IMG/VR virus record: IMGVR_UViG_3300025065_000001
Location: 16,545 to 80,544 of that record
Length of the DNA stretch: 64,000 bases
Direction: 5' to 3' (one strand)
DNA from: a virus
Position numbers and translations under genes: made by a program. Under the pieces are notes generated by a model. It was not told where the DNA came from and searched no databases. It worked only from the letters and a program-made list of their open reading frames with translations. This document shows, piece by piece, positions 29,346-62,090 of the stretch (within the stretch, counting starts at the first letter, position 1; each line of letters opens with the position of its first letter).

Positions 29346-29549
29346 TCGTGTCGTACTCGTGTCATTTCGTGTCCCTTTCGTGTCACCTTTCGGTACTGGT
29401 AAAAGAGGTAAGTTGTTGATTTGTACCCTCTTTGTACCTTCTTGTTTGGTGGAGCTGGCGGGATTTGAACCCGCGTCGATTATTTCCTAAATAGCTGATA
29501 AGCTTGGTTTTTTATTCGTGCCATTGGTATCTCGTGCCGCACTCGTGTC
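29346..29549. mobile_element. attP region with integrase arm-type repeats and IHF site
   Basis: TCGTGTC at 29346, 29357, 29367 and 29378; TCGTG(C/T)C at 29516, 29532 and 29543; IHF consensus AATCAACAACTTA on - at 29409-29421. Confidence 0.75.
29447..29477 (-). other. att core: 3' end of tmRNA (ssrA fragment)
   Basis: GACGCGGGTTCAAATCCCGCCAGCTCCACCA, the T-arm/acceptor end typical of gammaproteobacterial tmRNA; no full gene present. Confidence 0.85.
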
Positions 29550-30725
29550 ATTTTGGATTTTTTTCTCGTAATCCTCGATGAATTTACCGTAGTGTCGAAA
29601 TAGCATTTCTGGCGAAGAGTGGCCCATCCAATTTGCCAACTGCCACAAGTTAATTCCCTCACTAATATGTCGAGTCGCGAAAGTGTGACGCATTTGATAC
29701 GGGTACCGGTATCTTACTTTTGCAGCGGTAAGAATTCGACTCCATTTGTGTTTACGAAATGAGTCTGGGTTTATCCGGTTCAACTCCCCCTCTGGCAGTT
29801 CCATTCCAAACTTTAAGTTTTTAGGGAACACAAAACCGCGACCCAGATAGGAAAGTTCTCTTTGCCGGTTAAGGGCATTCATCGCGCTTTCATTTAAAGG
29901 TATGGCACGTTTACCGGCTTTTGATTTTGGACCCTTGATCTCGTTATGCACAATGGCCGCTTTTACGACTAAGGTGTTGTGAATGAAATCGACTTCGTTC
30001 CACTTAAGCGCCGACCATTCACTAGGCCGCATCCCCGTATTGAAAACCAGCTCAACAATATTTAGCTCTTCCGGTCTGCAATGCTCATAGATTGCTTCGA
30101 CTTCTTGTGGTGTGAACGGGTCGATATCATCGTGGCCACCGTCTAAATCTACCTTGTTATCTTTTTCTACGTAGTTAGAAAGCTTCACACCATCAATCGG
30201 ATTGGTTGGTACCAGTCCGTCAGTCACAGCTTCGGCCAGTGCAGTACGTAAAAAGCTGAACTTGTTTCGCAGTGTTTTAGGTGAGTTCCCAGACTTGAGA
30301 ACAAAGCTTTTCAAAACTTGCGGCGAGAGCTCGGTCACAGGGATAGGGTGGAGTTCCTTAACCGAGGTCTTCAGTTTTTCGTAGCCTTTAATAGTAGAAG
30401 GTGAGAGCCCCCGTTTCTTGACGCTCTCAATATATTCCTCCAAGTACGCTTCAACAGTCTTGCCCCACGCTACAGCGCCACCGAATATTTTTAGCTTTGG
30501 TGAGCTGGGGAAGTAGTCCGCGTATCGGAAAGTTTCACGCTCAATTTTATTTAATATCTCACCGCGTAAGTTACCCGCGTATTTGATATTTGATTTGTTG
30601 ACTGGAACCTTAAGGAGTTCGCGGCAGCGAACCCCTTTATATTCGAAGTTAATTTGAATACGGTCTTCTTTGGCCCCAGGCCTAATAGTTACCCCGCGAG
30701 GGAGTTGCCCCCATTTCTTATCCAT
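29487..30725 (-). CDS. int: Tyrosine integrase
   Basis: TGMRPSE, RHTFAT, MGH and HYG catalytic motifs; N-terminal arm-binding domain; adjacent to att. Confidence 0.95.
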   Translation of the reverse strand: MDKKWGQLPRGVTIRPGAKEDRIQINFEYKGVRCRELLKVPVNKSNIKYAGNLRGEILNKIERETFRYADYFPSSPKLKIFGGAVAWGKTVEAYLEEYIESVKKRGLSPSTIKGYEKLKTSVKELHPIPVTELSPQVLKSFVLKSGNSPKTLRNKFSFLRTALAEAVTDGLVPTNPIDGVKLSNYVEKDNKVDLDGGHDDIDPFTPQEVEAIYEHCRPEELNIVELVFNTGMRPSEWSALKWNEVDFIHNTLVVKAAIVHNEIKGPKSKAGKRAIPLNESAMNALNRQRELSYLGRGFVFPKNLKFGMELPEGELNRINPDSFRKHKWSRILTAAKVRYRYPYQMRHTFATRHISEGINLWQLANWMGHSSPEMLFRHYGKFIEDYEKKIQNDTSAARDTNGTNKKPSLSAI

Positions 30726-51414: not shown

Positions 51415-52893
51415 TTAAGCGGCTTGCATTATTGGGGTTACAAGGTCAACCGTTACACCTTCTTCAACTTGTGTACGGTCATTCGATTTATTCAGCAGTT
51501 TCTTAGCTACGTGAAGCTCTAGGCCACCACGATAGACAAGCAAGGTAATTCGCACGGCTTTCTCTCGAACACCCCGAAGCGCTCTTCGATAGTTCTGGAT
51601 GAATGTCGTGTCTTGCCAGTCGAAAGAGGTAAATATCATGTGGTCTACATGACCCCAGTTAAAACCAACACCAGCTACTTCAGGGCTACAAATCAACACA
51701 TCAATTTCACCTTGGCGAAACTTGTGGTCTATTTCTCCGCGTCGGCTGGTTATGCTGCCGTTTATATACTCAGCACGTAGCCCCATTTTTTCGCATATCT
51801 TCTTATAGCGTGCATGGGCCGCAACAACCGTTTCGAAGATAATCAAAGGTTCTTCGTTGAACTTGTGCGTCTCAAGGTGCTGCATAAGGTGTGCGTCTTT
51901 ACCATCAGAGTCGTTATGCTTTAAACCGTACTCCTCAGGGCATTGCATGATCTTAAAGCATCGCTGCAGCGTTACCGCTTCGTTCTCAGCTTCTAAGAAA
52001 TCATCTTCTAGTTCAGTAATACCTTTTTGCTTAATGTCATTGAACGCTTTTGCCTGAGACGGTGACATAGTGCACATTTCGGCAACGATGATTTTCTTTT
52101 CCTTGCCGTAAGCTTGCTCATATGTAACCCGACGACTGTGCTTATCGATAAGCGCTTGCAACCTGTCATGATTCTTCCACATGAAAGGCTTTCCATACTC
52201 ATCCAACATGGCGTGCCACATCATGAAGTTGTTGTACGTTGGATAGTACAGGGGATTAATTAACTTCAAACCTGGATACGCTGAGCACAACCGGCCATTG
52301 ATAAAGGTTCCCGTCATGATCAACAAGTCACCCCCGCGCTTCATGTACTGGTACATTTTGTGGGTGCGCTGGGGACCAATGAACGTATTGGGTTTTCTGT
52401 AATGAGGTTCGCCATGGGTGCTAAAGCCCAAGTGCCACTCATCACCACATAGGTGATAGGTGTCAGGGTATCGTTCAACAATCTCCTTGTGATTGTTAGC
52501 AAAGGCATCGAACCCCATCATAAATACTTTGGTTTCTTTGTTCGCGAACTGTTTAGCGCGTTGAGCTGGCGTACCATCTATCACCATAATTTGGTGAGGC
52601 TCTAAGTCTGACCACAACAATAATTCATGGTAGTTCTTTACGAGCAGAGATTTAGGCATCGTCCAAATAACGCGGCCATCTTTAGAGTGATGGTAAACCC
52701 AGAGGCAACCGGCCGGAGTTTTACCGGTACCGGCCTCGGATAAGTCCATAGAACGAGAGTTCGCCAGTGAAAAACCTAAATGCTCGATTTGATAGGGGCG
52801 CAATGACAGTGAATCTCTTCTGTCATACACATCATTCATATCGAACCAGATTTCGTTAGCTGGCTGCTTTGGTATCTTTTGAATGCTGGTCAT
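51415..52893 (-). CDS. SF2 (SNF2/DEXH-like) helicase
   Basis: LRPYQ, AGTGKT, DEWH, MTGT, VAGVGFN. Confidence 0.85.
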   Translation of the reverse strand: MTSIQKIPKQPANEIWFDMNDVYDRRDSLSLRPYQIEHLGFSLANSRSMDLSEAGTGKTPAGCLWVYHHSKDGRVIWTMPKSLLVKNYHELLLWSDLEPHQIMVIDGTPAQRAKQFANKETKVFMMGFDAFANNHKEIVERYPDTYHLCGDEWHLGFSTHGEPHYRKPNTFIGPQRTHKMYQYMKRGGDLLIMTGTFINGRLCSAYPGLKLINPLYYPTYNNFMMWHAMLDEYGKPFMWKNHDRLQALIDKHSRRVTYEQAYGKEKKIIVAEMCTMSPSQAKAFNDIKQKGITELEDDFLEAENEAVTLQRCFKIMQCPEEYGLKHNDSDGKDAHLMQHLETHKFNEEPLIIFETVVAAHARYKKICEKMGLRAEYINGSITSRRGEIDHKFRQGEIDVLICSPEVAGVGFNWGHVDHMIFTSFDWQDTTFIQNYRRALRGVREKAVRITLLVYRGGLELHVAKKLLNKSNDRTQVEEGVTVDLVTPIMQAA

Positions 52894-53197
52894 AATGGTT
52901 AGTTAATTTCATCAAATTAAGTAAATTAGTCGTGGCCTGTTGACTGGCCCCCTTCTCAAGTAACGTTACAATTTCTTGTAAATCGTTTCTCAGGTCTGGG
53001 AACACTCTCTCGATTGGGAACTCAGATTGAAGAAGTATCTCGAGTAAAAATTCCATTGGGACCTCTTTAGTCCCAGAAAGAGCTAAAGAAACTTTGGCTT
53101 GATTGCTACCTAGCGAGTCAGCAAGATCTTTCTGTTTGAGGCCTTTTTCTCGTATCGCATTCTTCAAAAGCGCGAGTCTTTCTGAAAATTTCAACAT
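52856..53197 (-). CDS. XRE-family HTH regulator
   Basis: IREKGLKQKDLADSLGSNQAKVSLALSG. Confidence 0.75.
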   Translation of the reverse strand: MLKFSERLALLKNAIREKGLKQKDLADSLGSNQAKVSLALSGTKEVPMEFLLEILLQSEFPIERVFPDLRNDLQEIVTLLEKGASQQATTNLLNLMKLTNHYDQHSKDTKAAS

Positions 53198-53227
53198 GGC
53201 TATCGTGTCTCTTATCGTCAATTATTC

Positions 53228-53920
53228 TTATGCTACTTTGTCAAACGAACGGGTACCTTTGCAGTACTCGGATAATACGTAACTTCCCAAGTGTTCTAGG
53301 GGCAAGCTGATTAAATCTCTTAGTGGTATAAGTTTACTAAGATTCGTTTCTAAACGCTGAACGTGCTTTGGAAGCACAATTGAAGAGTCACCACAAAAGA
53401 TAACCGTTCTTGGAGACGTCTTTGCAGCCGTAGCCAGCTTTATCACGGATTCGTTGTCTGTGTTCTTTAAATCAACAAACACCATTGGGTGAATGTTTGT
53501 TTTATCAATATGTTTGATAGCGTGGTTCATGCCCACAACGAACAAAGGCTTTACCCACGTATGAAGTGGAGAGTTCAACCGTTCTAAACACGCAAGCCAT
53601 ACCGCAGCATCTGGAAGTTGTTCTTCGTCTAGGAAGTAAGTTTTTCCATTAGGTATTGGTAACATAGCTTGAACGAGCGGGTCGGCTATAAGGTTGTTGA
53701 ACTTACTTAAGTGGACCTTACTTAGCTTACGTGTAGCTAAATTCACATTGATATTATGTGAGCACTGGTTTCTCAGTGGTTTAACCGTAAGATTTGATTT
53801 GGTGCTTAGGCCTATAAAGTTCCAGCCATAGGGACAAGTATCTTGGTAGATATAGCTAACACCCTCGTCCTCGTGAATACCATAGTGCCCAAGGGGGGTG
53901 GGTTTTTTTTGCTGTTGCAT
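53228..53920 (-). CDS. Hypothetical protein
   Basis: ORF with box at its start. Confidence 0.55.
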   Translation of the reverse strand: MQQQKKPTPLGHYGIHEDEGVSYIYQDTCPYGWNFIGLSTKSNLTVKPLRNQCSHNINVNLATRKLSKVHLSKFNNLIADPLVQAMLPIPNGKTYFLDEEQLPDAAVWLACLERLNSPLHTWVKPLFVVGMNHAIKHIDKTNIHPMVFVDLKNTDNESVIKLATAAKTSPRTVIFCGDSSIVLPKHVQRLETNLSKLIPLRDLISLPLEHLGSYVLSEYCKGTRSFDKVA

Positions 53921-53946
53921 CGTCAATTTCCTGATTGTCTGAGTAA

Positions 53947-54225
53947 TTAAAAATTAGATTTGATAATATTTATTACCCTAGTGTTAAAGAATTCTGCCAG
54001 ATTTTGTAAGTCTGTCAAAGTTATTTCTTTGGTCCCCCGTCTTAAGCGACTGAAACTACTTTCAGCCATTCCGAGTTTCTTCCTTAACGCCTCACCATCA
54101 TCATCAAACGTAAACGTGGTGTGGAAGTCTATTCGCATCCCAATAGCCTTGTGCAGGGGGGATACAACCTCAAGTTGGAGCGATACCTGCTCCAACTTGG
54201 GTTGGTTTTTAGTGTTTAACGACAT
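53947..54225 (-). CDS. XRE-family HTH protein
   Basis: LRKKLGMAESSFSRLRRGTKEITLTDLQNLAEFF. Confidence 0.7.
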   Translation of the reverse strand: MSLNTKNQPKLEQVSLQLEVVSPLHKAIGMRIDFHTTFTFDDDGEALRKKLGMAESSFSRLRRGTKEITLTDLQNLAEFFNTRVINIIKSNF

Positions 54226-54481
54226 TAGAAAGATTCGGGACGTCTAATCCCGTTTGCTGATAACGCGTTAAACGGTCTTGCATGGCCTCAATTTCACTCA
54301 CTAAGGAGTCGGGATAAGGTTGCTTAATCCCGAGCGTATCGGCCATTTTGTTAGCGGACTCAATATCCTTCAACAAAGCTTTAAAGTTAGCACTCGAACC
54401 TAGGTTACGAAGCTGGGACAACTCAGCTTGCACTTTCTTTAGCTTTACAAAGTAATCCGCTTGTAAGTTTTGTGGCATATT
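54209..54481 (-). CDS. Hypothetical protein
   Basis: ATG after GGAGG. Confidence 0.5.
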   Translation of the reverse strand, partial: NMPQNLQADYFVKLKKVQAELSQLRNLGSSANFKALLKDIESANKMADTLGIKQPYPDSLVSEIEAMQDRLTRYQQTGLDVPNLSNVVKH

Positions 54482-54498
54482 GTTTAGGTCCTCCAAAG

Positions 54499-55134
54499 TC
54501 AATAAAGCGCTAGGATAGTTTTTAAATCGTGGTGTCTTGCCTGAACTCTCGTTCCTGTTACCGCTTCAAAATGGTTTAAGGGTAAACGGTACTTCCTAGC
54601 AAAGTACTGGCAATATTCACTACGCTTAACAAGATACTTTTGGTAACGGTCACCTTTAATCTCTTCATGCCTACGCTCTCCATAGACACTTTCAAAGTAA
54701 CTATAAACGTGTGCCGGAAGATGCCAATATCGTGAGGGGTAGTGAAACATAGGGTTCGCCCAATTCAGCGTTTCACTATCCATCGTCTTTTGTTTTCCTG
54801 GGGGCCAGAGCGGATAAGTTATCAATAAGTAATCAGGATAAAGTAAACACCACATCATTTTACTTACCTGAATATTTATCTTTTGGCCTTTCACATCGAT
54901 AATTAGACGAGACTTTTCAAGCCTCGTCTCTAGGTTCCCCCAAGTCTTCACATGCCAGAAGTCTTCTCGCGCTAACTTCAGTTCCTCATCCCAGTCTAAA
55001 TCTGGGAACTTATTTTCAACATACGCTTTCAGCTTTTTGTAAATAAGGTGAACGAAAGGCGCATCGAAAGACTTATCCCAATAGAACAAGCTACGCTGTA
55101 ATCGAAAAACATTATCACGACGTAGCTGGGCCAT
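54499..55134 (-). CDS. Hypothetical protein
   Basis: Translationally coupled to the ligase gene (TAATG). Confidence 0.55.
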   Translation of the reverse strand: MAQLRRDNVFRLQRSLFYWDKSFDAPFVHLIYKKLKAYVENKFPDLDWDEELKLAREDFWHVKTWGNLETRLEKSRLIIDVKGQKINIQVSKMMWCLLYPDYLLITYPLWPPGKQKTMDSETLNWANPMFHYPSRYWHLPAHVYSYFESVYGERRHEEIKGDRYQKYLVKRSEYCQYFARKYRLPLNHFEAVTGTRVQARHHDLKTILALY

Positions 55135-56309
55135 TACAGGTCCTCACGAATACGAGAATTAGTGATATGGCAGGGCTTACCTTCTTTAGTGTATCCATAT
55201 GAGAACACGGTGAGTTTCTTGCCGATATTCTTATGCCCGTTCATAGCATGATCGTGTTTCTCATTCGCATCACCTGGCGCCGTAACATCAAAGGTCTTGC
55301 CATCTGCCGTTTGACAGACATATATACCTACCTCGGTACCTAGGCGCTTATTAGGCTTACCTTTGCGAATCCCGATAATCTCAAACTCCGCGTCTTCTTC
55401 GTCCTTACGCTTCATCAAAGATGCGCTGCGTTTATCCGTTTCGTAAGGGGCATCCCCTTGGCGAACCATCGTACCTTCATAACCGTTAGAGGTCCAAGAA
55501 GCATGGTAGTTGTCGATACCCGCCTGATCATTAACTTTGTAACAGGCCGTTAAACACAGGGTGGGGTAGGAGCTTTCAGTTATACGAGAGTCCAAGTAAT
55601 CAAATCTATCAGCGTAAGGAAGATCAAGAACAACGTCATAAATATTGTACGACAGGTATTTACTGTCTTCTTGTGGCTTCTTGATGAGGCTAGAAATATT
55701 TTCAAAGGCTTTACCATGGCAGTAAAGCTCACCATCCAAGGTTGTGCCATCCCAAATACCTCTGTCATAAAGAAACTGTAAGCGTTCCATGATGTGAACA
55801 ACCGTGATTGGCTTCCCGCCACGAGAGTAAAGGAACACCTTTTCTTCTTGTATGGTGGCAAGACAGCGGTGGCCATCCATTTTAGGCTGAACAAATATAG
55901 GGAATTCCCAGTCTTTTACTTTATCAATTGGCTGGGCCAACATAGGTTTTACCAAGCCTAAGGCATTGGTGACCGCTGCACCTTCCTCAGGTTGCTCTTC
56001 AACATAGCCTTTATCCAGTTGTTTTTTGACTTTGCTTTGCGCTTCAAACACGGCTTGCATAATTGGCGTGGTTTCATTACTGCGGCCAATGTTCTTGCCT
56101 TCAGTGTAATCCGTTGCGGTTTCAACGCCTTTACCACCTAAGACCTTGCGAGAGGTAACAAGCGTGCTAGCGGTATCGTCGGGGTTAAGCGTAACCTTGA
56201 TATGCCAAGAACCTACTTTTCCGCCCGAATGGACTTTAAATAGTGTTTGTTCAAAGCGAACGTCGGCATCTAAAGAAGTAGTGCTAGAGGTATTAGCAGG
56301 GATATTCAT
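55134..56309 (-). CDS. ATP-dependent DNA ligase
   Basis: PMLA, QPKMDGHRC, LDGELY, YEGTMVR, MKRK. Confidence 0.92.
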   Translation of the reverse strand: MNIPANTSSTTSLDADVRFEQTLFKVHSGGKVGSWHIKVTLNPDDTASTLVTSRKVLGGKGVETATDYTEGKNIGRSNETTPIMQAVFEAQSKVKKQLDKGYVEEQPEEGAAVTNALGLVKPMLAQPIDKVKDWEFPIFVQPKMDGHRCLATIQEEKVFLYSRGGKPITVVHIMERLQFLYDRGIWDGTTLDGELYCHGKAFENISSLIKKPQEDSKYLSYNIYDVVLDLPYADRFDYLDSRITESSYPTLCLTACYKVNDQAGIDNYHASWTSNGYEGTMVRQGDAPYETDKRSASLMKRKDEEDAEFEIIGIRKGKPNKRLGTEVGIYVCQTADGKTFDVTAPGDANEKHDHAMNGHKNIGKKLTVFSYGYTKEGKPCHITNSRIREDL

Positions 56310-56539
56310 ATCGTCAATTTCCAAATTTTAAAGTTAAGCCAGTAGGCAAAGTTAAAACTACGCTTTCAACTTTTGTATATCAAGTTAAAAACGAAGTCCG
56401 TCTACAAAAACACAATTTATTTGTGTTTTTAATATTTATTAAAAAAATATGCTTTCTTTAATTTATTTAATTGGTTAGAATTTGTTCGTTTTGTTTTGTA
56501 GTAAAAGATTTACATTATGGCCTTGATGGAGTACTCGCC

Positions 56540-56860
56540 GTGTCTAAGAAAATTGACGATAATATAGAACCACCATGGGAGCTAGAGCGCCGTAGGCGAA
56601 TAGCTCGAAAATTTAAAAATATGCGCCAGAATTATCGATTGACGCAAGAAGAACTCGCTATTGCTGCGGACGTTCACAAGAATACTATTTCAAATGCTGA
56701 GCGATACGGCAAAATCTCCACTGAAGAATTCTACAAATATCAACAAATTGCAAAACGCGCTCACATGAAGAAGGGACTCGGTGCGGTAGTGAGTAAAATT
56801 ACCTTATCGGATATCCCATTCTCGGATTTTAAAAGATTCTTAGCGACGTTTTGGGAGTAA
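56540..56860 (+). CDS. XRE-family HTH regulator
   Basis: MRQNYRLTQEELAIAADVHKNTISNAERYG; likely GTG start at 56540 after GGAG. Confidence 0.8.
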   Translation: MSKKIDDNIEPPWELERRRRIARKFKNMRQNYRLTQEELAIAADVHKNTISNAERYGKISTEEFYKYQQIAKRAHMKKGLGAVVSKITLSDIPFSDFKRFLATFWE

Positions 56861-56863
56861 TTT

Positions 56864-57622
56864 ATGTATCGTCACTTCTTTAAAACTTATGGTTTACGGT
56901 TCGCGCTATTCGTTTCAGCATTGCTAATTTTCACGGCTGTTCTAAACAATTTTCTAGTTGAGGGCAAATGGCAACTAAACTCACTGTCCGATATGCTCAG
57001 CTACTACGCGGTGATGTTTTCATGCGTTATCTTAGCTGGCGTAATGGTTAAGGGTTTCAATAATCGTATCGTTTTGGCTTTGATCATAATTGCTTCAATC
57101 TCTGAACAGGCGATTGCCAGCCTAATGTTTACGCTAAGTCCTACACTCCATACCGCTATTGCCATGATTTATGTGCCAGGTATTCTAACCATGGTGATGT
57201 ACCAGTATCGGGTTAAGTTCCAGTTTTGGGTGGCAAACAGACTCATCAAGTCTGAGCGCTTTCGTGACACCGGCTTTAATTTGCTAGAAAAGACCGAGGA
57301 CACGAATCTAGGTACATGGTTGTGTATGGTGTATAAGCTGTGCTGGTTTATCTGTTTTGCTATTGCGGTTTACTACCACATATTCACGATACATTTTGGT
57401 ATTCATGAAACAGGCCCACTACTTTATGGTTATCGTCTCGTTGATATTGAGTACGCGCTACACTTACCTAGCTTCTATTTTCTGTTTAATATCGTCTTTA
57501 TTACTCAGACTGTTATGTTGCTTATGCTGTTGTTCCACGCAAGTATTCAAGAGTTCTACGTTAAAGATCTTGCTGGGGCTATACCTAAGAAATTGGAAGT
57601 ACTATTTAAAAGAGCGGCTTAG
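56864..57622 (+). CDS. Multi-pass (~6 TM) membrane protein
   Basis: Several long hydrophobic helices; starts 3 bp after the HTH gene. Confidence 0.8.
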   Translation: MYRHFFKTYGLRFALFVSALLIFTAVLNNFLVEGKWQLNSLSDMLSYYAVMFSCVILAGVMVKGFNNRIVLALIIIASISEQAIASLMFTLSPTLHTAIAMIYVPGILTMVMYQYRVKFQFWVANRLIKSERFRDTGFNLLEKTEDTNLGTWLCMVYKLCWFICFAIAVYYHIFTIHFGIHETGPLLYGYRLVDIEYALHLPSFYFLFNIVFITQTVMLLMLLFHASIQEFYVKDLAGAIPKKLEVLFKRAA

Positions 57623-57632
57623 CCGCTCTTTT
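57608..57632. terminator. Bidirectional terminator
   Basis: AAAAGAGCGGC-TTA-GCCGCTCTTTT. Confidence 0.85.
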
Positions 57633-57643
57633 AGTTTCTAGAC

Positions 57644-57796
57644 TTAAAAACCAACCGTAGGCTTTTTAGGCTTGAGTGATTCGGTTTTAGGGTTGTCCGC
57701 TGGCTTAGGGACAACAACGTTGCTATCAACCTCAGCCATAGCCATTGTTGAACCCATACCAAGTACTAGCGCGATTGCAAATCCTAATTTTTTCAT
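57644..57796 (-). CDS. 50-aa secreted peptide precursor (not in the ORF track)
   Basis: MKKLGFAIALVLGMGSTMAMA/EVDSNVVVPKPADNPKTESLKPKKPTVGF; Sec signal with A-X-A site; SD GGAG 7 nt upstream. Confidence 0.8.
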   Translation of the reverse strand: MKKLGFAIALVLGMGSTMAMAEVDSNVVVPKPADNPKTESLKPKKPTVGF

Positions 57797-57912
57797 TGTG
57801 TTTCTCCATAAGAGGTTTGGTTGTTTTCTATGGAGTCAATTGCAAAGCCTGTGCCCAACCGAAAGACTAGGGGTTTTAGACAGTTTCAGGCTGTAAGAAG
57901 TGATATACGAGG

Positions 57913-57943
57913 CGAAATGTTGCCTAACTGCGGCAACATTTCG
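57913..57943. terminator. Inverted repeat (terminator or operator) upstream of the peptide gene
   Basis: CGAAATGTTGCC-N7-GGCAACATTTCG. Confidence 0.55.
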
Positions 57944-57949
57944 ATATCA

Positions 57950-58789
57950 CTATAACAGTATTGGTAGTTCTGTTGCCAGTTCCCGACGTTTTAGCAGTGG
58001 GACTTGGTTTTTTATCCAAGTCTTAATTTTTTGAATCCGACTGCCAGCACGCTCTTTTTTATGGTTCGCTACTATCGATAAAGCTTCTAATAACGCCCAT
58101 CCTTCACCGTCAGGGCCAACGTAACCCCAGCAAGAATCATCAATGTCGTGACCTTCGATAACATAACCATACACATCCCCTTCTAGATACGCTGCATAGG
58201 TTTTAACTTCGCTATCTAAGTATTCATAGACCTTTTGAATGCGTGCTTTTGTTAACCGCTTAAAACCATACTCTTCACGAGCTTTCTCTTTGGTAACGTA
58301 GATAAAACCGACTTGGCCAGAGTCCCAAGAACACGAGAAACCCCCTGTATTCATCGTTATTCCAGAATGGTCGTACAGGTAGAGTGGGAGGATGAGGTAG
58401 TATTTATCAAGTCGCGCTTCAATCTTCTTCTCAACCAGTTCTTGGTAATCTTTAGTCCCTTGGGCATCCCAATTTGTTGAAGGCCAGTTATGTTCTAGTC
58501 TTTCCAACATCGCCTCAAATCCTGGCTCAACTTCTTCTACCATACCGATACGATAGTCTTGGTAGCTTACTGAAGGTTGTTCGTCACCTAAATTGTATCT
58601 ACTATGCCAGCACACCATTGTGCCCACGTTATCCCACTCACGAGGGCTTTCAGCATCCCCATCACGCTCGATTTTAATTGTTATATCTTTTATCTGAGTT
58701 TCAGACTCACCAATTAAATCAAGGGTGTTAAAATCTAGGTTTAATTTCTGGCAGTTTGCCTTCAGTTGTTTTGATAGTTCAGGGTGCAT
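57950..58789 (-). CDS. Conserved phage hypothetical protein
   Basis: SPREWDN...LPLYLYDHSG...WDSGQVG...DSCWGY motifs. Confidence 0.65.
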   Translation of the reverse strand: MHPELSKQLKANCQKLNLDFNTLDLIGESETQIKDITIKIERDGDAESPREWDNVGTMVCWHSRYNLGDEQPSVSYQDYRIGMVEEVEPGFEAMLERLEHNWPSTNWDAQGTKDYQELVEKKIEARLDKYYLILPLYLYDHSGITMNTGGFSCSWDSGQVGFIYVTKEKAREEYGFKRLTKARIQKVYEYLDSEVKTYAAYLEGDVYGYVIEGHDIDDSCWGYVGPDGEGWALLEALSIVANHKKERAGSRIQKIKTWIKNQVPLLKRRELATELPILL

Positions 58790-58846
58790 CGTCAATCTCC
58801 AACAAGTTAATTTCAAGAGGGGGAGAACATTCCCCCTTTCAGGGTT

Positions 58847-59197
58847 TTAAATTTCGCAACTGGGCTGGGCGTCATGCCAAGCTTCAAAAACGCGTAAACG
58901 AATCGCTTCAGGTATTTCTATCTTGTCCGCACAGCTCGTTATATATGAGACTGCTCTCATGTTTTCAGTGAACACGAACAAGGTAGGCTTCAACGAGTTT
59001 CGAGCTCTAGACGCTGCCCCCATATCAATATTGTTATCAATAAAAACCACTTGGGGGTCTATTTCATTGAGGTGAGCTTCAATGAACTCTTTCAGGCTAG
59101 GGTTAATCAAGCTCATGTAAGCTCGAACGCAATGGCCTATAAAAGCACTGTTGATCTCTTCAAGAATTGCTTTAGTGTCTGCGGTACTAATTTGCAT
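58847..59197 (-). CDS. Hypothetical protein
   Basis: Box at its start. Confidence 0.55.
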   Translation of the reverse strand: MQISTADTKAILEEINSAFIGHCVRAYMSLINPSLKEFIEAHLNEIDPQVVFIDNNIDMGAASRARNSLKPTLFVFTENMRAVSYITSCADKIEIPEAIRLRVFEAWHDAQPSCEI

Positions 59198-59399
59198 CGT
59201 CAATTTCCTTCTGTGATCGAGTGAAGAACTCTTCACTCGTTAAATTACGGATATCTACAATTTGTTGTTGTAGTCTCTGTATGGCTTCGTTCTTAGCACG
59301 GTTTAGTGTTTTCTCCCCCGTCTCATAAGGTCGAGGAATAAAGTAACCAGCAAGAATTTCTTTTGTCCGAAGCAGGGTGCCTAGGTCTTTACCACTCAT
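59187..59399 (-). CDS. Hypothetical protein
   Basis: Coupled short ORF. Confidence 0.45.
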   Translation of the reverse strand: MSGKDLGTLLRTKEILAGYFIPRPYETGEKTLNRAKNEAIQRLQQQIVDIRNLTSEEFFTRSQKEIDDAN

Positions 59400-59842
59400 T
59401 CGCTGTCCCATCCCCAGTTACGCGCTTCAGGGCAGACTTCTTCTCGGGTTACTGCACTGTCCGTGTAATTACTGAACCACTCAGATAAAGCCGTTTCGTC
59501 GAGTTCGGCTAACGTGTCCCACTCATAGACAGTGGTGCTTTCCTGCTCGAGGTAGAAACCGTTCTCTTTGATATACTCTTTGCAGTGTTCAATCCATTCG
59601 TCCCAGTCTGAAATCCAGTCCATTTCTTCAACATTAAGATACGCATTACCAAAAGGACGTCCGTTAGTATCATTGAAAGACTTTTTCCAAAACTCTTCAC
59701 TATCCCCGACGCCACCTTCTAATTCAGCAATCGTCGCTTTTAAAACACGAATAATCTCGCTCTTCATCTTAGTCGTGTCGTCGGTAGCCTCTCCTGCATG
59801 GGAGACTGATAATTCAAAATCAAAATTACTTATACGTGTCAT
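59396..59842 (-). CDS. Acidic hypothetical protein
   Basis: Box at its start. Confidence 0.55.
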   Translation of the reverse strand: MTRISNFDFELSVSHAGEATDDTTKMKSEIIRVLKATIAELEGGVGDSEEFWKKSFNDTNGRPFGNAYLNVEEMDWISDWDEWIEHCKEYIKENGFYLEQESTTVYEWDTLAELDETALSEWFSNYTDSAVTREEVCPEARNWGWDSE

Positions 59843-59893
59843 CGTCAATTTCCAACAAGTTAATTAAAAGGGGAGAACATTCCCCCCTAAGAT

Positions 59894-60085
59894 TTAAACC
59901 AATACCCAGTGGCCGTAATAAAGTTCGGCACCAAATTCGGTTTCTACTCGGCCCTCCATGTGCTCATCACAAATGTAATTTGTGATTTCGGGTAAGCATC
60001 GGCATGTGAGTAGTCGGTCAACATCCGCAGCTACCTTTCTTTTAGGATGTTTCTTCATCACCCACTCAACTTTTAAAATAGCCAT
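59894..60085 (-). CDS. Hypothetical protein
   Basis: Short ORF within the operon. Confidence 0.45.
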   Translation of the reverse strand: MAILKVEWVMKKHPKRKVAADVDRLLTCRCLPEITNYICDEHMEGRVETEFGAELYYGHWVLV

Positions 60086-60087
60086 GG

Positions 60088-60705
60088 CTAACCCTCATAC
60101 CGCACGATTTTCGTGAACACCTTACAGGTGCTAAACGTGTCGCTGGGTAACGTCTCGACTTCCTCATAACTGGGGTGGTCGAACGACGTTGGTACCACCG
60201 CAACAAGTACCCCTGTGAAGCGGAGTAACTTGCGTGCGGCCTCCATATGCTGTTTCACCTGTTTGAACGGGGGGTTCATTATGATCTTTTCATAACGATA
60301 CCCTGCGTTGTAACGAGCCTCGGCCCAGCTAAGGAAGTCTTCGTGATGCACCAAGGGGACAGCCCCCTCGCAATCGGCACTACAAAAACGCTGTAACAAA
60401 GCTTCAACCAACGAATACTCACGTTCGACAATCGTAATAAGGTCAGCATCATGCCCCTCGGCTTTAACAGCCTGAACCAAATTACCGGTACCCCCCGAAG
60501 GTTCTAGAACACGATCGTCTGATTCCAACTCCAACAGCTCGACCATACGCTCAGCTATCGCCGGAGGCGTAACGTGGCATTCAGTTGAAGCATGAACCAC
60601 GACAGGCTTTGGGGCCTCAGAGAACTCGATAGGCTCGAGTTCTACTTTTTCCGGTGCCTTAACATGCTTGGGTTTATTGGGTCTTACATACACTGATGAA
60701 TCCAT
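60088..60705 (-). CDS. DNA adenine methyltransferase-like protein
   Basis: TPP, VLEPSGGTGNL, IMNPPF. Confidence 0.8.
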   Translation of the reverse strand: MDSSVYVRPNKPKHVKAPEKVELEPIEFSEAPKPVVVHASTECHVTPPAIAERMVELLELESDDRVLEPSGGTGNLVQAVKAEGHDADLITIVEREYSLVEALLQRFCSADCEGAVPLVHHEDFLSWAEARYNAGYRYEKIIMNPPFKQVKQHMEAARKLLRFTGVLVAVVPTSFDHPSYEEVETLPSDTFSTCKVFTKIVRYEG

Positions 60706-62090
60706 TAGGCTGTCTCCACTTCTACATACTCAAGAGCCGTTGAATTCGGCGCGGCGTGCGTCTTTGAGTCTGTTAGGTAAACCGCAGCCCATTCGCCTTT
60801 CCAAAAATCCTGGCCTTTTGGAACAATTCGACAAACTTTTACTCTGAACTGGCCACAGATACTCGGCTTCACGCCACGCTGCTCACTATGGGTAGTTGAA
60901 TACTCCGCTTTCGTCATTGAGACGATAGGATACTTGTTCACGTTGCCCCACATTTTCACCGTCACGCTTTTTACTTCTTCCGGTGAAAGGTTAAGAATAG
61001 GTGGGGCCTTAGGCTTAGGGACCGGCACTTCATAGCCCACCTCATACATCAGGTCGCGCCATTCCAGTTCTTCCAGTTCCAGTGTCGAACCCTCACCAAT
61101 GTGGATAGGTAAGTCGTTGTCACACTCCGCAATCCAACCAACGTCAGATTTTGTCGCTTTAGGTTTATCAGCGCCATGCGTTCTAAGGAACGTCTGCAAT
61201 ACAGGGGCGGTAAGCTTACCGGTAAAGTATTCAACTTCCCCTAACTGAGCCCGTTCGTAAGTAAGACGGTTCAAGATATGGTTTATCTTGCGGTGTAAGT
61301 TTTGGTCGTTCTTACGCTTGGTACCTAGCTCAATATTCGCGTCGATAATTTCGCTTAAAGGTTTCTTATCTTCCTTAATGTCGCGATAACTATCTGAAAT
61401 GCAGATATCCCAACGATAATTTGCAATCATTAAAGCAAACTCTTTTTGCTTCTCGGAATCCTCCATACCTTTGCAGCGTTCCCAAAGAGAAAGGCAATCA
61501 CCAGCAGCGTGCAAATAACGCTGTTGCTTTCGCAAGTCCGTAAGTAACGTTTTAATACGTCTATAAATAACGTCAGGGCGATTTTTGTGGTTGGCGTGAG
61601 CAATGGTACCCATCATGCGCCAGTTCCAATAGCGGACCGCTGAGCTAGCTTCTTTGGCGCGTTCTTCGTTACGCTCTTGGGCTTCTTGCGCTTTCTGCAT
61701 TTTACGCTGGCTGTGGTGGCCCAAAAGAATAGGTTGATCACCATATTCCATACTGTTCGCCGCAGCACTAAAACCTCGCGCTTGGTCAGCACGCTTTTCA
61801 GCAAGCGCTTTTAAGCGTTCGGCTTTCGCTTCTGCACGCTCGGCCATCGTCGTGTCTTCAGGTTCAATCGTACCGGCCAAGCGAATACATAAGTCTTCCG
61901 CTTCAGGGGACCATGAAGGTTTTACGAAAAGCTCTTGTTTTGGCGCCCAACCAAAGCCGAGTGCTTTTAGCTCATCATAAAGGTCTTTATCTAAGCGGTG
62001 GAGAGGGTAGATACGCAACTTGTTATCTTCAGGGGAGTAAGTAGCGCGTTCGATATCTTCGTGTTTTGTAGCAACAGTTTGATTATTCAT
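60705..62090 (-). CDS. DUF3560-like protein
   Basis: ATYSPEDNKLR...WAPKQELF...GDQPILLGHHSQRK. Confidence 0.7.
   Translation of the reverse strand: MNNQTVATKHEDIERATYSPEDNKLRIYPLHRLDKDLYDELKALGFGWAPKQELFVKPSWSPEAEDLCIRLAGTIEPEDTTMAERAEAKAERLKALAEKRADQARGFSAAANSMEYGDQPILLGHHSQRKMQKAQEAQERNEERAKEASSAVRYWNWRMMGTIAHANHKNRPDVIYRRIKTLLTDLRKQQRYLHAAGDCLSLWERCKGMEDSEKQKEFALMIANYRWDICISDSYRDIKEDKKPLSEIIDANIELGTKRKNDQNLHRKINHILNRLTYERAQLGEVEYFTGKLTAPVLQTFLRTHGADKPKATKSDVGWIAECDNDLPIHIGEGSTLELEELEWRDLMYEVGYEVPVPKPKAPPILNLSPEEVKSVTVKMWGNVNKYPIVSMTKAEYSTTHSEQRGVKPSICGQFRVKVCRIVPKGQDFWKGEWAAVYLTDSKTHAAPNSTALEYVEVETA

What the first reader, a model, noticed from the sequence alone, without database searches (positions are those of the whole stretch)
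56540..57796. HTH + membrane protein + convergent secreted peptide: possible peptide-signalling cassette in a Gram-negative phage
Seen: a + strand two-gene unit (XRE HTH, ~6-TM protein) inserted in the - strand early region. It converges at a perfect bidirectional terminator on an unannotated 50-codon gene with a good SD, a classical signal peptide (MKK, hydrophobic core, AMA) and a 29-aa Pro/Lys-rich mature part ending PTVGF. Known: arbitrium (AimP/AimR) of Bacillus phages uses a secreted peptide and a cytoplasmic RRNPP receptor; no such receptor is present here. Inference: the peptide is exported and sensed by the membrane protein, which controls the HTH, giving a non-arbitrium communication or lysis-lysogeny switch. 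Superinfection exclusion or a toxin/immunity pair are alternatives. The HTH mRNA also carries the sRNA box, which would link the two systems.
Basis: partly seen in the sequence, partly recalled or inferred. Interest (0 to 1): 0.82.

Follow-up and report, generated by a model that had tools for sequence, protein, structure and literature searches.

The report
Phage repressor plus membrane-protein/exported-peptide add-on
A temperate marine phage carries, behind a repressor-like gene, an add-on pair of unknown genes (a six-helix inner-membrane protein and a small exported peptide with its own sigma-54-type promoter); the pair is real, conserved and transcribed in the sea, but nothing shows that it is a phage communication system.

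Summary
All three genes exist and are under strong purifying selection (omega 0.02-0.11). The shared terminator hairpin is invariant in seven related phages.

- **Lifestyle and host:** the phage has 80.5 kb and an integrase. Relatives sit in 128-194 kb bacterial contigs. The host is probably Alteromonas.
- **The pair is an add-on:** two sister phages keep the HTH gene (69% identity) in the same place but lack both the membrane protein and the peptide. The pair is a 1.09-kb module; the HTH belongs to the phage backbone and does not need it.
- **Regulation:** the peptide gene has a conserved sigma-54-type -24/-12 element, with an inverted repeat about 100 bp upstream. The membrane gene starts 3 nt after the HTH stop.
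- **Expression:** in four marine metatranscriptomes, RNA contigs cover the cassette while the flanking early genes are nearly blank.
- **Homology:** the membrane protein and peptide match no family or fold.

Best reading (confidence 0.45): a repressor-like HTH with a hitch-hiking envelope module that acts within the lysogen (exclusion/defence, or toxin-immunity).

Signalling in the manner of Bacillus SdpC/SdpI/SdpR remains possible (about 0.17). Arbitrium-like communication is unlikely.

This scan noted the same cassette before, on sister genomes. Two tools (look-up of encoding contigs, complex prediction) were closed.

The parts
56406..56430 (.). AT-rich perfect palindrome (10-bp arms, 5-nt loop) with T-runs on both strands. 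It is a terminator-like insulator on the left of the cassette.
   Evidence: -8.9 / -8.8 kcal/mol, z about -3.3. The stem is conserved and the loop varies in relatives. A second copy lies at genome 9575-9606, behind an 835-aa gene.
56476..56481 (+). -10-like hexamer TAGAAT of the HTH/membrane operon. It has a poor -35 and AT-rich DNA upstream.
   Evidence: Read from the sequence. RNA contigs begin just downstream: at 56492 (adapter-flanked fragment end, X16) and at 56503 (X15, X17). The consensus promoter scan did not list it, so it is inferred.
56501..56513 (+). Palindrome GTAAA-AGA-TTTAC in the HTH leader; a candidate autoregulatory operator.
   Evidence: Unique in the 80.5-kb genome and invariant in five phages. 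Function is inferred only.
56540..56860 (+). XRE/Cro-C1-type HTH protein, 106 aa. It is a backbone regulator and probably the lysogeny repressor.
   Evidence: Pfam HTH_3 E 9e-5; PHROG 7950 'transcriptional repressor' E 2.7e-5; PDB C.BclI E 5e-4. Omega about 0.02. Kept at 69% identity in sister phages that lack the next two genes.
56552..56560 (+). Copy of the genome-wide start-associated box ATTGACGAT, inside HTH codons 5-7.
   Evidence: By my own letter-by-letter comparison, 14 contiguous bases (56549-56562) are complementary to the candidate sRNA printed. The box is absent from the sister-phage HTH gene.
56864..57622 (+). Orphan inner-membrane protein, 252 aa, six helices, N-in/C-in. It is co-transcribed with the HTH.
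   Evidence: No hit in Pfam, PHROGs, PADLOC, NCBIfam or PDB sequences. No fold match. Only 3 distant homologues among 1.84 billion representatives. Omega about 0.05. Topology and conservation by side.
57607..57633 (.). Bidirectional intrinsic-terminator hairpin shared by the membrane gene and the peptide gene. The membrane gene's stop codon lies in the loop.
   Evidence: An X17 RNA contig ends at 57627.
57644..57796 (-). 50-aa pre-peptide: a Sec-type signal peptide (residues 1-21, A-x-A) and a 29-aa Pro/Lys-rich mature part.
   Evidence: Homologues occur only in this phage clade. RNA contigs cover it in 3 of 4 runs.
57841..57855 (-). Sigma-54-type -24/-12 element GGCAC-N5-TTGCA. The predicted start is near 57830.
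   Evidence: It is the only match in the 64-kb window and lies 45-59 nt upstream of the peptide ATG. GG and TTGCA are invariant and the spacer varies in seven phages. The phage encodes no sigma-54 activator.
57900..57950 (-). Strong inverted repeat (12-bp inner arms, 7-nt spacer) directly after the 288-aa gene. It is a terminator or RNA stabiliser of the upstream operon and possibly an activator-binding site, centred about -98 from the predicted sigma-54 start.
   Evidence: -23.3 kcal/mol, z -6.5. The arms are invariant and the spacer varies. An RNA contig ends at 57915.
56861..57949 (.). Extent of the accessory module (membrane gene, terminator, peptide gene, its promoter and the inverted repeat). 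It is missing from sister phages L030/L031.
   Evidence: tblastn and junction sequence. In the sister phages the HTH stop and the stop of the 288-aa gene are 2 nt apart.

Best explanation
The locus is two things joined together.

(1) The 106-aa HTH is a backbone regulator of this temperate phage. It is transcribed against the early arm from its own weak promoter and is probably the lysogeny (immunity) repressor.

(2) The 252-aa membrane protein and the 50-aa pre-peptide form a 1.09-kb accessory module of the moron kind, lodged between the HTH gene and the end of the upstream early operon.

- The membrane gene rides on the repressor transcript, as rexA-rexB ride on cI in lambda.
- The peptide gene is its own small unit with a host sigma-54-type promoter and terminators on both sides.
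- The membrane protein inserts in the inner membrane with both ends, and its most conserved motifs, in the cytoplasm.
- The peptide is Sec-exported, cleaved after A-M-A and stays in the periplasm.
- Together they change the envelope of the lysogen itself. The most likely role is to exclude or abort other phages, in the way T4 Imm plus Sp or P22 SieA do. A toxin/immunity role is the close second.

Shown: the genes, selection on them, the add-on nature of the pair, the regulatory motifs, and RNA presence. Inferred: repressor role, export, periplasmic retention, exclusion function.
For: - Temperate lifestyle: integrase at 29487-30725, PHROG 1, E 3e-60. Relatives lie in bacterial contigs of 128-194 kb.
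- The HTH-membrane unit is the only convincing + strand genes in the long minus-strand arm.
- No LexA-like or other CI candidate was found among about 50 ORFs scanned.
- Sister phages L030/L031 (ligase 82%, HTH 69%, 288-aa gene 68% identity) keep the HTH in place but have neither the membrane gene nor the peptide gene. The two stop codons there are 2 nt apart.
- All seven phages that have the membrane gene also have the peptide gene.
- The module has its own signals: the 57607-57633 terminator, the 57900-57950 hairpin, and the sigma-54-type element. That element is the only match in the window and is conserved with a variable spacer.
- RNA contigs of four metatranscriptome runs from four studies cover 56492-57808 or 56492-58225 at depth 11-45. 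The ligase gene and the region 58346-60350 are at or near zero.
- Morons are defined by presence/absence between relatives, own promoter/terminator, and prophage expression; HK97 gp15 and P22 SieA are inner-membrane exclusion proteins (PMC3594210, PMC10883804).
Against: - No homology or fold links either protein to any known exclusion, defence or immunity protein.
- The runs were chosen because they hold this stretch. Contigs cannot give strand or level, so 'prophage-state expression' is only suggested.
- GC and GC3 of the module do not differ from the backbone.
- No repeated operator ties the HTH to other early promoters. Two other small HTH genes (53953-54138 and 52856-53221, minus strand) could hold the switch instead.
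- A hydrophilic, proline-rich, nearly neutral peptide is not what known pore-forming toxins look like.
- Why a separate sigma-54 promoter is used is not explained.
Confidence: 0.45

Rival explanations
1. Sdp-like three-protein circuit. The exported peptide binds the periplasmic face of the membrane protein. The protein's conserved cytoplasmic motifs then capture the HTH. This lifts repression of the HTH-membrane operon and, if the HTH is the prophage repressor, shifts the lysis-lysogeny balance. Host sigma-54 signalling would set the peptide level.
For: - The architecture is that of sdpRI/sdpC: the regulator lies 3 nt upstream of a six-helix membrane protein, convergent on the peptide gene (PMC2910880).
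- The membrane protein and the peptide are gained or lost together.
- Residues invariant across all eight homologues cluster on the cytoplasmic side: GFNN, E-x-TN and E-x-Y-x-KDL-x-G motifs, 23% against 7%.
- All three genes are recovered in the same RNA samples.
- Peptide E39/K39 goes with K35 or Q35 in periplasmic loop 1 of the membrane protein in the loci where both genes are read (window and L009/L010 against L011/L012), but this is one evolutionary event.
Against: - The HTH, with the same conserved C-terminal tail, works without the pair in sister phages.
- There is no SdpI, ArsR or RRNPP homology.
- The last 11 residues of the peptide are invariant.
- The outer membrane blocks cell-to-cell passage of a 3-kDa peptide, so at best the circuit is cell-autonomous (inference).
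Confidence: 0.17
2. Toxin/immunity (or addiction) pair. The peptide harms the envelope of cells that lack the membrane protein. The lysogen is protected because the immunity gene is made constitutively from the repressor transcript, while the toxin is made only under a sigma-54-activating condition.
For: - The pair is inherited together, on opposite strands with separate control.
- A small exported peptide next to a multi-pass membrane protein is the usual bacteriocin/immunity layout (general knowledge; SdpC/SdpI in PMC2910880).
Against: - The peptide is hydrophilic, proline-rich, non-amphipathic and has net charge about +1, unlike membrane-active toxins.
- Sec export alone does not release it from a Gram-negative cell.
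- There is no export, maturation or lysis partner in the module.
Confidence: 0.15
3. Type II toxin-antitoxin or abortive-infection pair. The HTH is the antitoxin and autorepressor, and the membrane protein is a membrane-damaging effector. The peptide is an unrelated neighbour.
For: - The HTH gene is followed 3 nt later by the membrane gene.
- Weak HTH hits are to antitoxin families: HipB/Y4mF E 1.7e-5, MqsA 2e-4.
- A unique palindrome lies in the HTH's own leader.
Against: - The HTH persists alone in sister phages with no partner.
- The membrane protein always travels with the peptide, not only with the HTH.
- There is no PADLOC hit.
Confidence: 0.08
4. Arbitrium-like phage-to-phage communication: a diffusible peptide counts previous infections and sets lysogeny.
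For: Only the presence of a small exported peptide in a temperate phage next to a regulator.
Against: - No TPR/RRNPP receptor was found in the roughly 50 ORFs scanned.
- The peptide has 29 residues and does not diversify.
- The host has an outer membrane.
- The promoter depends on a host activator rather than on infection.
- The module is dispensable in sister phages.
Confidence: 0.04

Closest known systems
Lambda cI-rexA-rexB immunity operon (own knowledge), and prophage morons such as HK97 gp15 (PMC3594210)
   Same: - An accessory membrane-protein gene is placed directly behind the repressor-like gene and shares its transcript.
- The module is present or absent between otherwise syntenic relatives.
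- It carries its own terminators.
- RNA is recovered while the flanking early genes are blank.
   Different: - No sequence or fold similarity to RexB, gp15 or any PHROG.
- The module has a second, convergent gene for an exported peptide with a sigma-54-type promoter.
- No GC deviation from the backbone.
SdpC / SdpI / SdpR of Bacillus subtilis (PMC2910880)
   Same: - Autorepressor-type regulator about 3 nt upstream of a six-helix membrane protein.
- The operon is convergent on the gene of an exported peptide.
- The membrane protein has conserved motifs on the cytoplasmic side.
   Different: - Gram-negative phage rather than a Firmicute chromosome.
- XRE-type regulator, not ArsR-type.
- No SdpI-family hit.
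- No SdpA/B-like maturation genes.
- The regulator occurs without the membrane protein in sister phages.
- Sequestration is untested.
T4 Imm + Sp, and P22 SieA superinfection exclusion (own knowledge; PMC10883804)
   Same: An inner-membrane protein, here paired with a small periplasm-facing protein, made by a resident phage and acting on the cell's own envelope.
   Different: - No homology.
- Imm and Sp are not a fixed gene pair.
- The exclusion phenotype is untested here.
Arbitrium AimP/AimR/AimX of Bacillus phages
   Same: A temperate phage encodes a small peptide with a signal sequence near a regulator.
   Different: - No RRNPP receptor.
- No short mature peptide.
- No peptide diversification.
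- Host with an outer membrane.
- The module is dispensable.

Membership tests
XRE / Cro-C1-type HTH regulators | Helix-turn-helix domain recognised by family profiles | tested here: met
   Residues about 20-66 match in four libraries: Pfam HTH_3 E 9e-5 (22.8 bits, 0.2 below the curated cut-off), PHROG 7950 E 2.7e-5, PADLOC HTH_VI 1.2e-4, PDB C.BclI 5e-4. The hits are weak but consistent.
Prophage master repressor (CI-like) | Binds repeated operators at early promoters and maintains lysogeny | tested here: inconclusive
   Orientation against the early arm, RNA presence and retention in sister phages fit. No repeated operator was found, and two other small HTH genes exist.
Sec (type I) signal peptide | Basic n-region, hydrophobic h-region, small residues at -3/-1, no lipobox Cys | tested here: met
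   MKK; residues 4-21 have mean KD 1.84; A19-M20-A21; no Cys. The n-region, most of the core and the A-x-A site are invariant in 11 variants; positions 6, 14 and 18 vary conservatively. This is a rule-based call, because SignalP was not available.
Sigma-54 promoter | GG and GC elements 10 nt apart (TGGCAC-N5-TTGCW), upstream of the gene, needing an activator | tested here: met
   The sequence feature is met. GGCAC-N5-TTGCA at 57841-57855 is the only match in 64 kb (0.41 expected anywhere). It has the right strand and place, and is conserved with a variable spacer in seven phages. Activity, start site and activator are untested. RNA contigs stop at 57808, 22 nt short of the predicted start.
Moron (prophage accessory transcription unit) | Present/absent between syntenic relatives | tested here: met
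   L030/L031 lack 56861-57949.
Moron (prophage accessory transcription unit) | Own promoter and terminator; expressed from the repressed prophage; deviating GC | tested here: inconclusive
   The peptide gene has its own promoter motif and terminators, whereas the membrane gene borrows the HTH promoter. RNA contigs fit prophage expression but the runs were pre-selected. GC does not deviate.
SdpI family immunity/signal proteins | Sequence membership (Pfam SdpI/YhfL) | tested here: not met
   No Pfam or NCBIfam hit at E 0.1 or below for the window protein or three distant homologues.
SdpI family immunity/signal proteins | Regulator just upstream in one operon, convergent on the peptide gene | tested here: met
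   3-nt gap and a shared terminator, compared with PMC2910880.
SdpI family immunity/signal proteins | The membrane protein binds the peptide and sequesters the regulator | not testable with these tools
This needs two-hybrid or pull-down tests.
Arbitrium (AimR/AimP) | Cytoplasmic TPR/RRNPP receptor next to the peptide gene | tested here: not met
   No such domain in the cassette or in about 50 other ORFs scanned.
Arbitrium (AimR/AimP) | Mature peptide differs between related phages | tested here: not met
   The last 11 residues are identical in 11 variants whose membrane proteins differ by up to 27%.
Known superinfection-exclusion or defence proteins | Sequence or fold similarity to SieA, gp15, Imm, Sp, RexB or PADLOC models | tested here: not met
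   There was no sequence match: PHROGs and PADLOC gave no hit. Fold comparison is inconclusive: Foldseek gave nothing at E 0.001 or below, and VIA-align gave only generic helical bundles at Z 9 or below.

The most novel reading that the evidence does not exclude
In a Gram-negative temperate phage, a host sigma-54 signal drives a periplasmic peptide. The peptide binds an orphan six-helix membrane receptor, which in turn captures the prophage repressor. The result would be an Sdp-like, cell-autonomous relay from the envelope to the lysis-lysogeny switch, acquired as a plug-in module behind the repressor gene.
Probability: 0.13. Interest if true: 0.85.

Novelty: new variant of a known kind. Interest (0 to 1): 0.5.

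Why it matters
- If the pair is an exclusion or immunity module, it adds two protein families with no known relatives to the prophage accessory functions of Alteromonas, an abundant marine heterotroph. It would also be a rare case of a phage gene under a host sigma-54 promoter.
- If the Sdp-like reading is right, it would be the first peptide-to-membrane-to-repressor relay in a phage of a Gram-negative host.
- Either way, the module is small and cleanly delimited by natural plus and minus sister phages. It is also visibly transcribed in seawater, which makes it easy to test.

Tried and rejected
- **Gene context of the three distant membrane-protein homologues** (P0010, P0012, P0013; 30-39% identity).
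- **Wider homologue searches:** the word-based search found nothing beyond the clade for the membrane protein or the peptide. The full HMMER search added only the three distant membrane-protein homologues above, a fragment and one weak repeat-protein hit.
- **Family and structure searches:**
  - The ESM Atlas gave only chance-level scores, 0.80 or below.
  - Foldseek against PDB and BFVD, VIA-align wide and PDB sequence search gave no meaningful match.
  - The AF2 model of the HTH was of low confidence (pLDDT 64) and was not searched.
- **Rfam:** only a sub-threshold STnc540 hit over the terminator, rejected.
- **Sigma-70 promoter for the peptide:** the -35-like TTGACT is not conserved (TTAACT in four relatives), so it was rejected.
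- **CAAX/Abi protease idea for the membrane protein:** rejected, because the invariant residues include no paired His/Glu motifs inside the membrane.
- **RNA contig ends at 57808 and 56503:** these recur in two studies each, but they may be assembly breaks at strain-variable sites. They are not taken as transcript ends.
- **Duplex energy of the candidate sRNA with the HTH leader:** not distinguishable from shuffles with the routine used. Only the 14-nt direct complementarity is reported.
- **GenBank phages:** no DNA match to the window and no protein match to the HTH or the membrane protein.
Full report
**Setting**

The window is bases 16545-80544 of an 80,544-bp IMG/VR phage record with 127-bp terminal repeats.
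- Structural and lysis genes lie on the + strand.
- A long arm of early and replication genes lies on the - strand. It holds DNA polymerase, primase-helicase, SbcCD, ligase and helicase, and it ends with a tyrosine integrase at 29487-30725 (PHROG 1, E 3e-60).
- Close relatives of the cassette proteins sit on bacterial contigs of 128-194 kb, so the phage is temperate.
- The host is probably Alteromonas, by inference. The capsid is closest to Pseudoalteromonas phage KB12-38 (58%) and the ligase to Alteromonas phages (53%).
- The two 'Tenacibaculum' isolates that carry relatives have 7.6-7.9 Mb assemblies. This looks like an Alteromonas plus Tenacibaculum mixture (PMC10112130).

Yes.
- *HTH.* The ORF is 56540-56860 (+): GTG start, GGAG 8 nt upstream, 106 aa. 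A 1-nt deletion in two relatives breaks the longer upstream frame, which fixes the start. It gives weak but consistent XRE-type hits.
- *Membrane protein.* Three bases after the HTH stop begins a 252-aa ORF (56864-57622).
  - Hydropathy and the AF2 helices agree with the six-helix layout I assigned.
  - On that layout K+R is 16 cytoplasmic against 2 periplasmic, which gives N-in/C-in.
- *Peptide.* The ORF is 57644-57796 (-): a good Shine-Dalgarno sequence, an MKK n-region, a hydrophobic core, A-M-A and no cysteine. The mature part has 29 residues and ends in PTVGF.
- *Selection.* Across five phages, Nei-Gojobori omega is 0.02-0.11 for the peptide, about 0.05 for the membrane protein and about 0.02 for the HTH, with synonymous sites near saturation. 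The 50-codon frame is therefore a real gene. The ORF on the opposite strand changes length between relatives.
- *Terminator.* The two gene ends meet at a 13-bp hairpin (57607-57633). It folds at -18 kcal/mol on either strand and is invariant in all relatives.
- *Box.* ATTGACGAT occurs 28 times in the window against 0.45 expected. One copy lies in HTH codons 5-7. By my own comparison, 14 contiguous bases there are complementary to the candidate sRNA printed.

**The key new result: the pair is an add-on**

A search with the neighbouring ligase found two sister phages, L030 and L031.
- They share the backbone: ligase 82%, 211-aa gene 69%, 288-aa gene 68% identity.
- They keep an HTH orthologue (69%, same length, same C-terminal tail) in the same place and orientation.
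- They have neither the membrane gene nor the peptide gene. The HTH stop and the stop of the 288-aa gene are 2 nt apart.
- Every phage that has the membrane gene also has the peptide gene (seven loci).

So 56861-57949 is a 1.09-kb module that comes and goes as a whole. The HTH belongs to the phage backbone and works without it.

**Regulatory anatomy**

*Left side.*
- An AT-rich perfect palindrome (56406-56430) with T-runs on both strands insulates the cassette. A near copy follows another gene at genome 9575-9606.
- A TAGAAT -10 hexamer (56476-56481) with a poor -35 precedes the HTH.
- A palindrome unique in the genome (GTAAA-AGA-TTTAC, 56501-56513) lies in the leader.

*Peptide gene.*
- It has a sigma-54-type element, GGCAC-N5-TTGCA, at 57841-57855 (-).
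- This is the only match in the 64-kb window.
- GG and TTGCA are invariant and the spacer varies in seven phages, whereas the nearby -35-like TTGACT is not conserved.
- A 12-bp-arm inverted repeat (57913-57943) lies directly after the 288-aa gene. It is centred about 98 bp upstream of the predicted start and folds at -23 kcal/mol.
- It can serve as the terminator of the upstream operon, as an activator site, or both.
- The phage encodes no sigma-54 activator, so a host activator would be needed.
- The sigma-54 lead came from note e1-5889632. The sequence evidence is confirmed here; activity is untested.

**Expression**

Six metatranscriptome runs hold part of the stretch. Contigs of four of them, from four studies, were laid on 52000-62000.
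- They cover 56492 or 56503 up to 57478, 57627, 57808 or 58225, at depth 11-45.
- They show a second spot at 53577-54151.
- They leave the ligase gene and 58346-60350 at or near zero.
- The blank flanks argue against DNA carry-over.
- One contig starts at 56492 directly behind an adapter, about 11 nt after the -10 hexamer.
- The peptide gene is covered in three of the four runs.

Caveats: the runs were selected for holding this stretch. Contigs give neither strand nor level, and recurrent contig ends may be assembly breaks. The pattern fits a cassette that is on while the neighbouring early genes are off, as in a lysogen, but it does not prove that.

**What the proteins are**

- The membrane protein and the peptide hit nothing in Pfam, PHROGs, PADLOC, NCBIfam or PDB sequences.
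- A full HMMER pass over 1.84 billion representatives found only the clade, one 84-residue fragment and three distant homologues at 30-39% identity.
- The AF2 model (pLDDT 68) has no significant structural neighbour.
- Across the eight homologues, invariant residues lie mainly on the cytoplasmic side (23%, against 7% periplasmic and 7% in-membrane). They form GFNN, E-x-TN and E-x-Y-x-KDL-x-G motifs.
- Within the close clade, periplasmic loop 3 is also well kept (81%).
- The last 11 residues of the peptide are identical in 11 variants.

**Interpretation**

The add-on nature of the pair, its position immediately behind a repressor-like gene, its own terminators and promoter, and the RNA pattern make a prophage accessory (moron-type) envelope module the best reading. 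The layout recalls lambda cI-rexAB. The likely function is that of exclusion proteins such as HK97 gp15, P22 SieA or T4 Imm/Sp (PMC3594210, PMC10883804; lambda and T4 from my own knowledge).

A toxin/immunity pair is the close second. The composition of the peptide (hydrophilic, proline-rich, nearly neutral) speaks against a membrane-active toxin.

- For it: the architecture matches strikingly, and cytoplasmic motifs could hold the HTH.
- Against it: the HTH does not need the pair, there is no homology, and a Sec-exported 3-kDa peptide has no evident path between Gram-negative cells.

Arbitrium-type communication fails two defining features that could be tested: the receptor and peptide diversification.

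**Limits**

- No function is demonstrated.
- The same cassette was noted earlier by this scan on two sister genomes (e1-5889632, e1-5889641), with similar verdicts.

Noticed in passing
window 53953-54138 (-): An unlisted 61-aa Cro/C1-type HTH gene (Pfam HTH_26, 22.7 bits, above the cut-off) lies in what looks like a 280-bp gap. It sits inside the second RNA hotspot (contigs 53577-54151 in all four runs) and may be part of the real genetic switch.
   Followed up: partly
window, 28 sites (e.g. 56310-56318, 56552-56560): The 9-mer ATTGACGAT occurs 28 times against 0.45 expected, almost always at gene starts. The sister-phage HTH gene lacks it.
   Followed up: partly
genome 9575-9606 (outside the window) and window 56402-56432: Two copies of the same AT-rich palindrome (CTACAAAAACACAAT...ATTGTGT). 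Both are in terminator-like positions on the minus arm.
   Followed up: partly
genome 12536-12550 (-), outside the window: A second sigma-54-like match (GGCAT-N5-TTGCA) lies inside the 164-aa early gene. It may be chance.
   Followed up: no
L029:3518-4374 (IMGVR_UViG_2895532408_000002): The orthologue of the 288-aa gene is split into two overlapping pieces in this prophage, so it is probably frameshifted.
   Followed up: no
peptide residue 39 and membrane-protein residue 35 (periplasmic loop 1): Peptides with E39 go with K35 in the membrane protein (window, L009, L010). Peptides with K39 go with Q35 (L011, L012). This is a possible salt-bridge swap, but it rests on a single split in the tree.
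   Followed up: partly
mature peptide residues 22-30 (window 57704-57730, -): The mature N-terminus (acidic residue, then S-N-V-V/F/L-V-P) loosely recalls TonB-box pentapeptides such as ETLTV of colicin M (PMC11658791). The rest is Lys-Pro-rich like the TonB spacer (my own memory). A periplasmic TonB-box decoy is an untested idea.
   Followed up: no
protein P0007 (ENA contig, 2.5 kb): The first 146 residues of the membrane protein are fused to an SMC-like C-terminus. This is most likely an assembly chimera.
   Followed up: no
GenBank assemblies of strains KUL113 / KUL118: Assemblies labelled Tenacibaculum have 7.6-7.9 Mb at 39% GC, next to 4.5-Mb Alteromonas assemblies from the same study. They are probably mixed cultures, so the host label of the prophage relatives is unreliable (PMC10112130).
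   Followed up: partly
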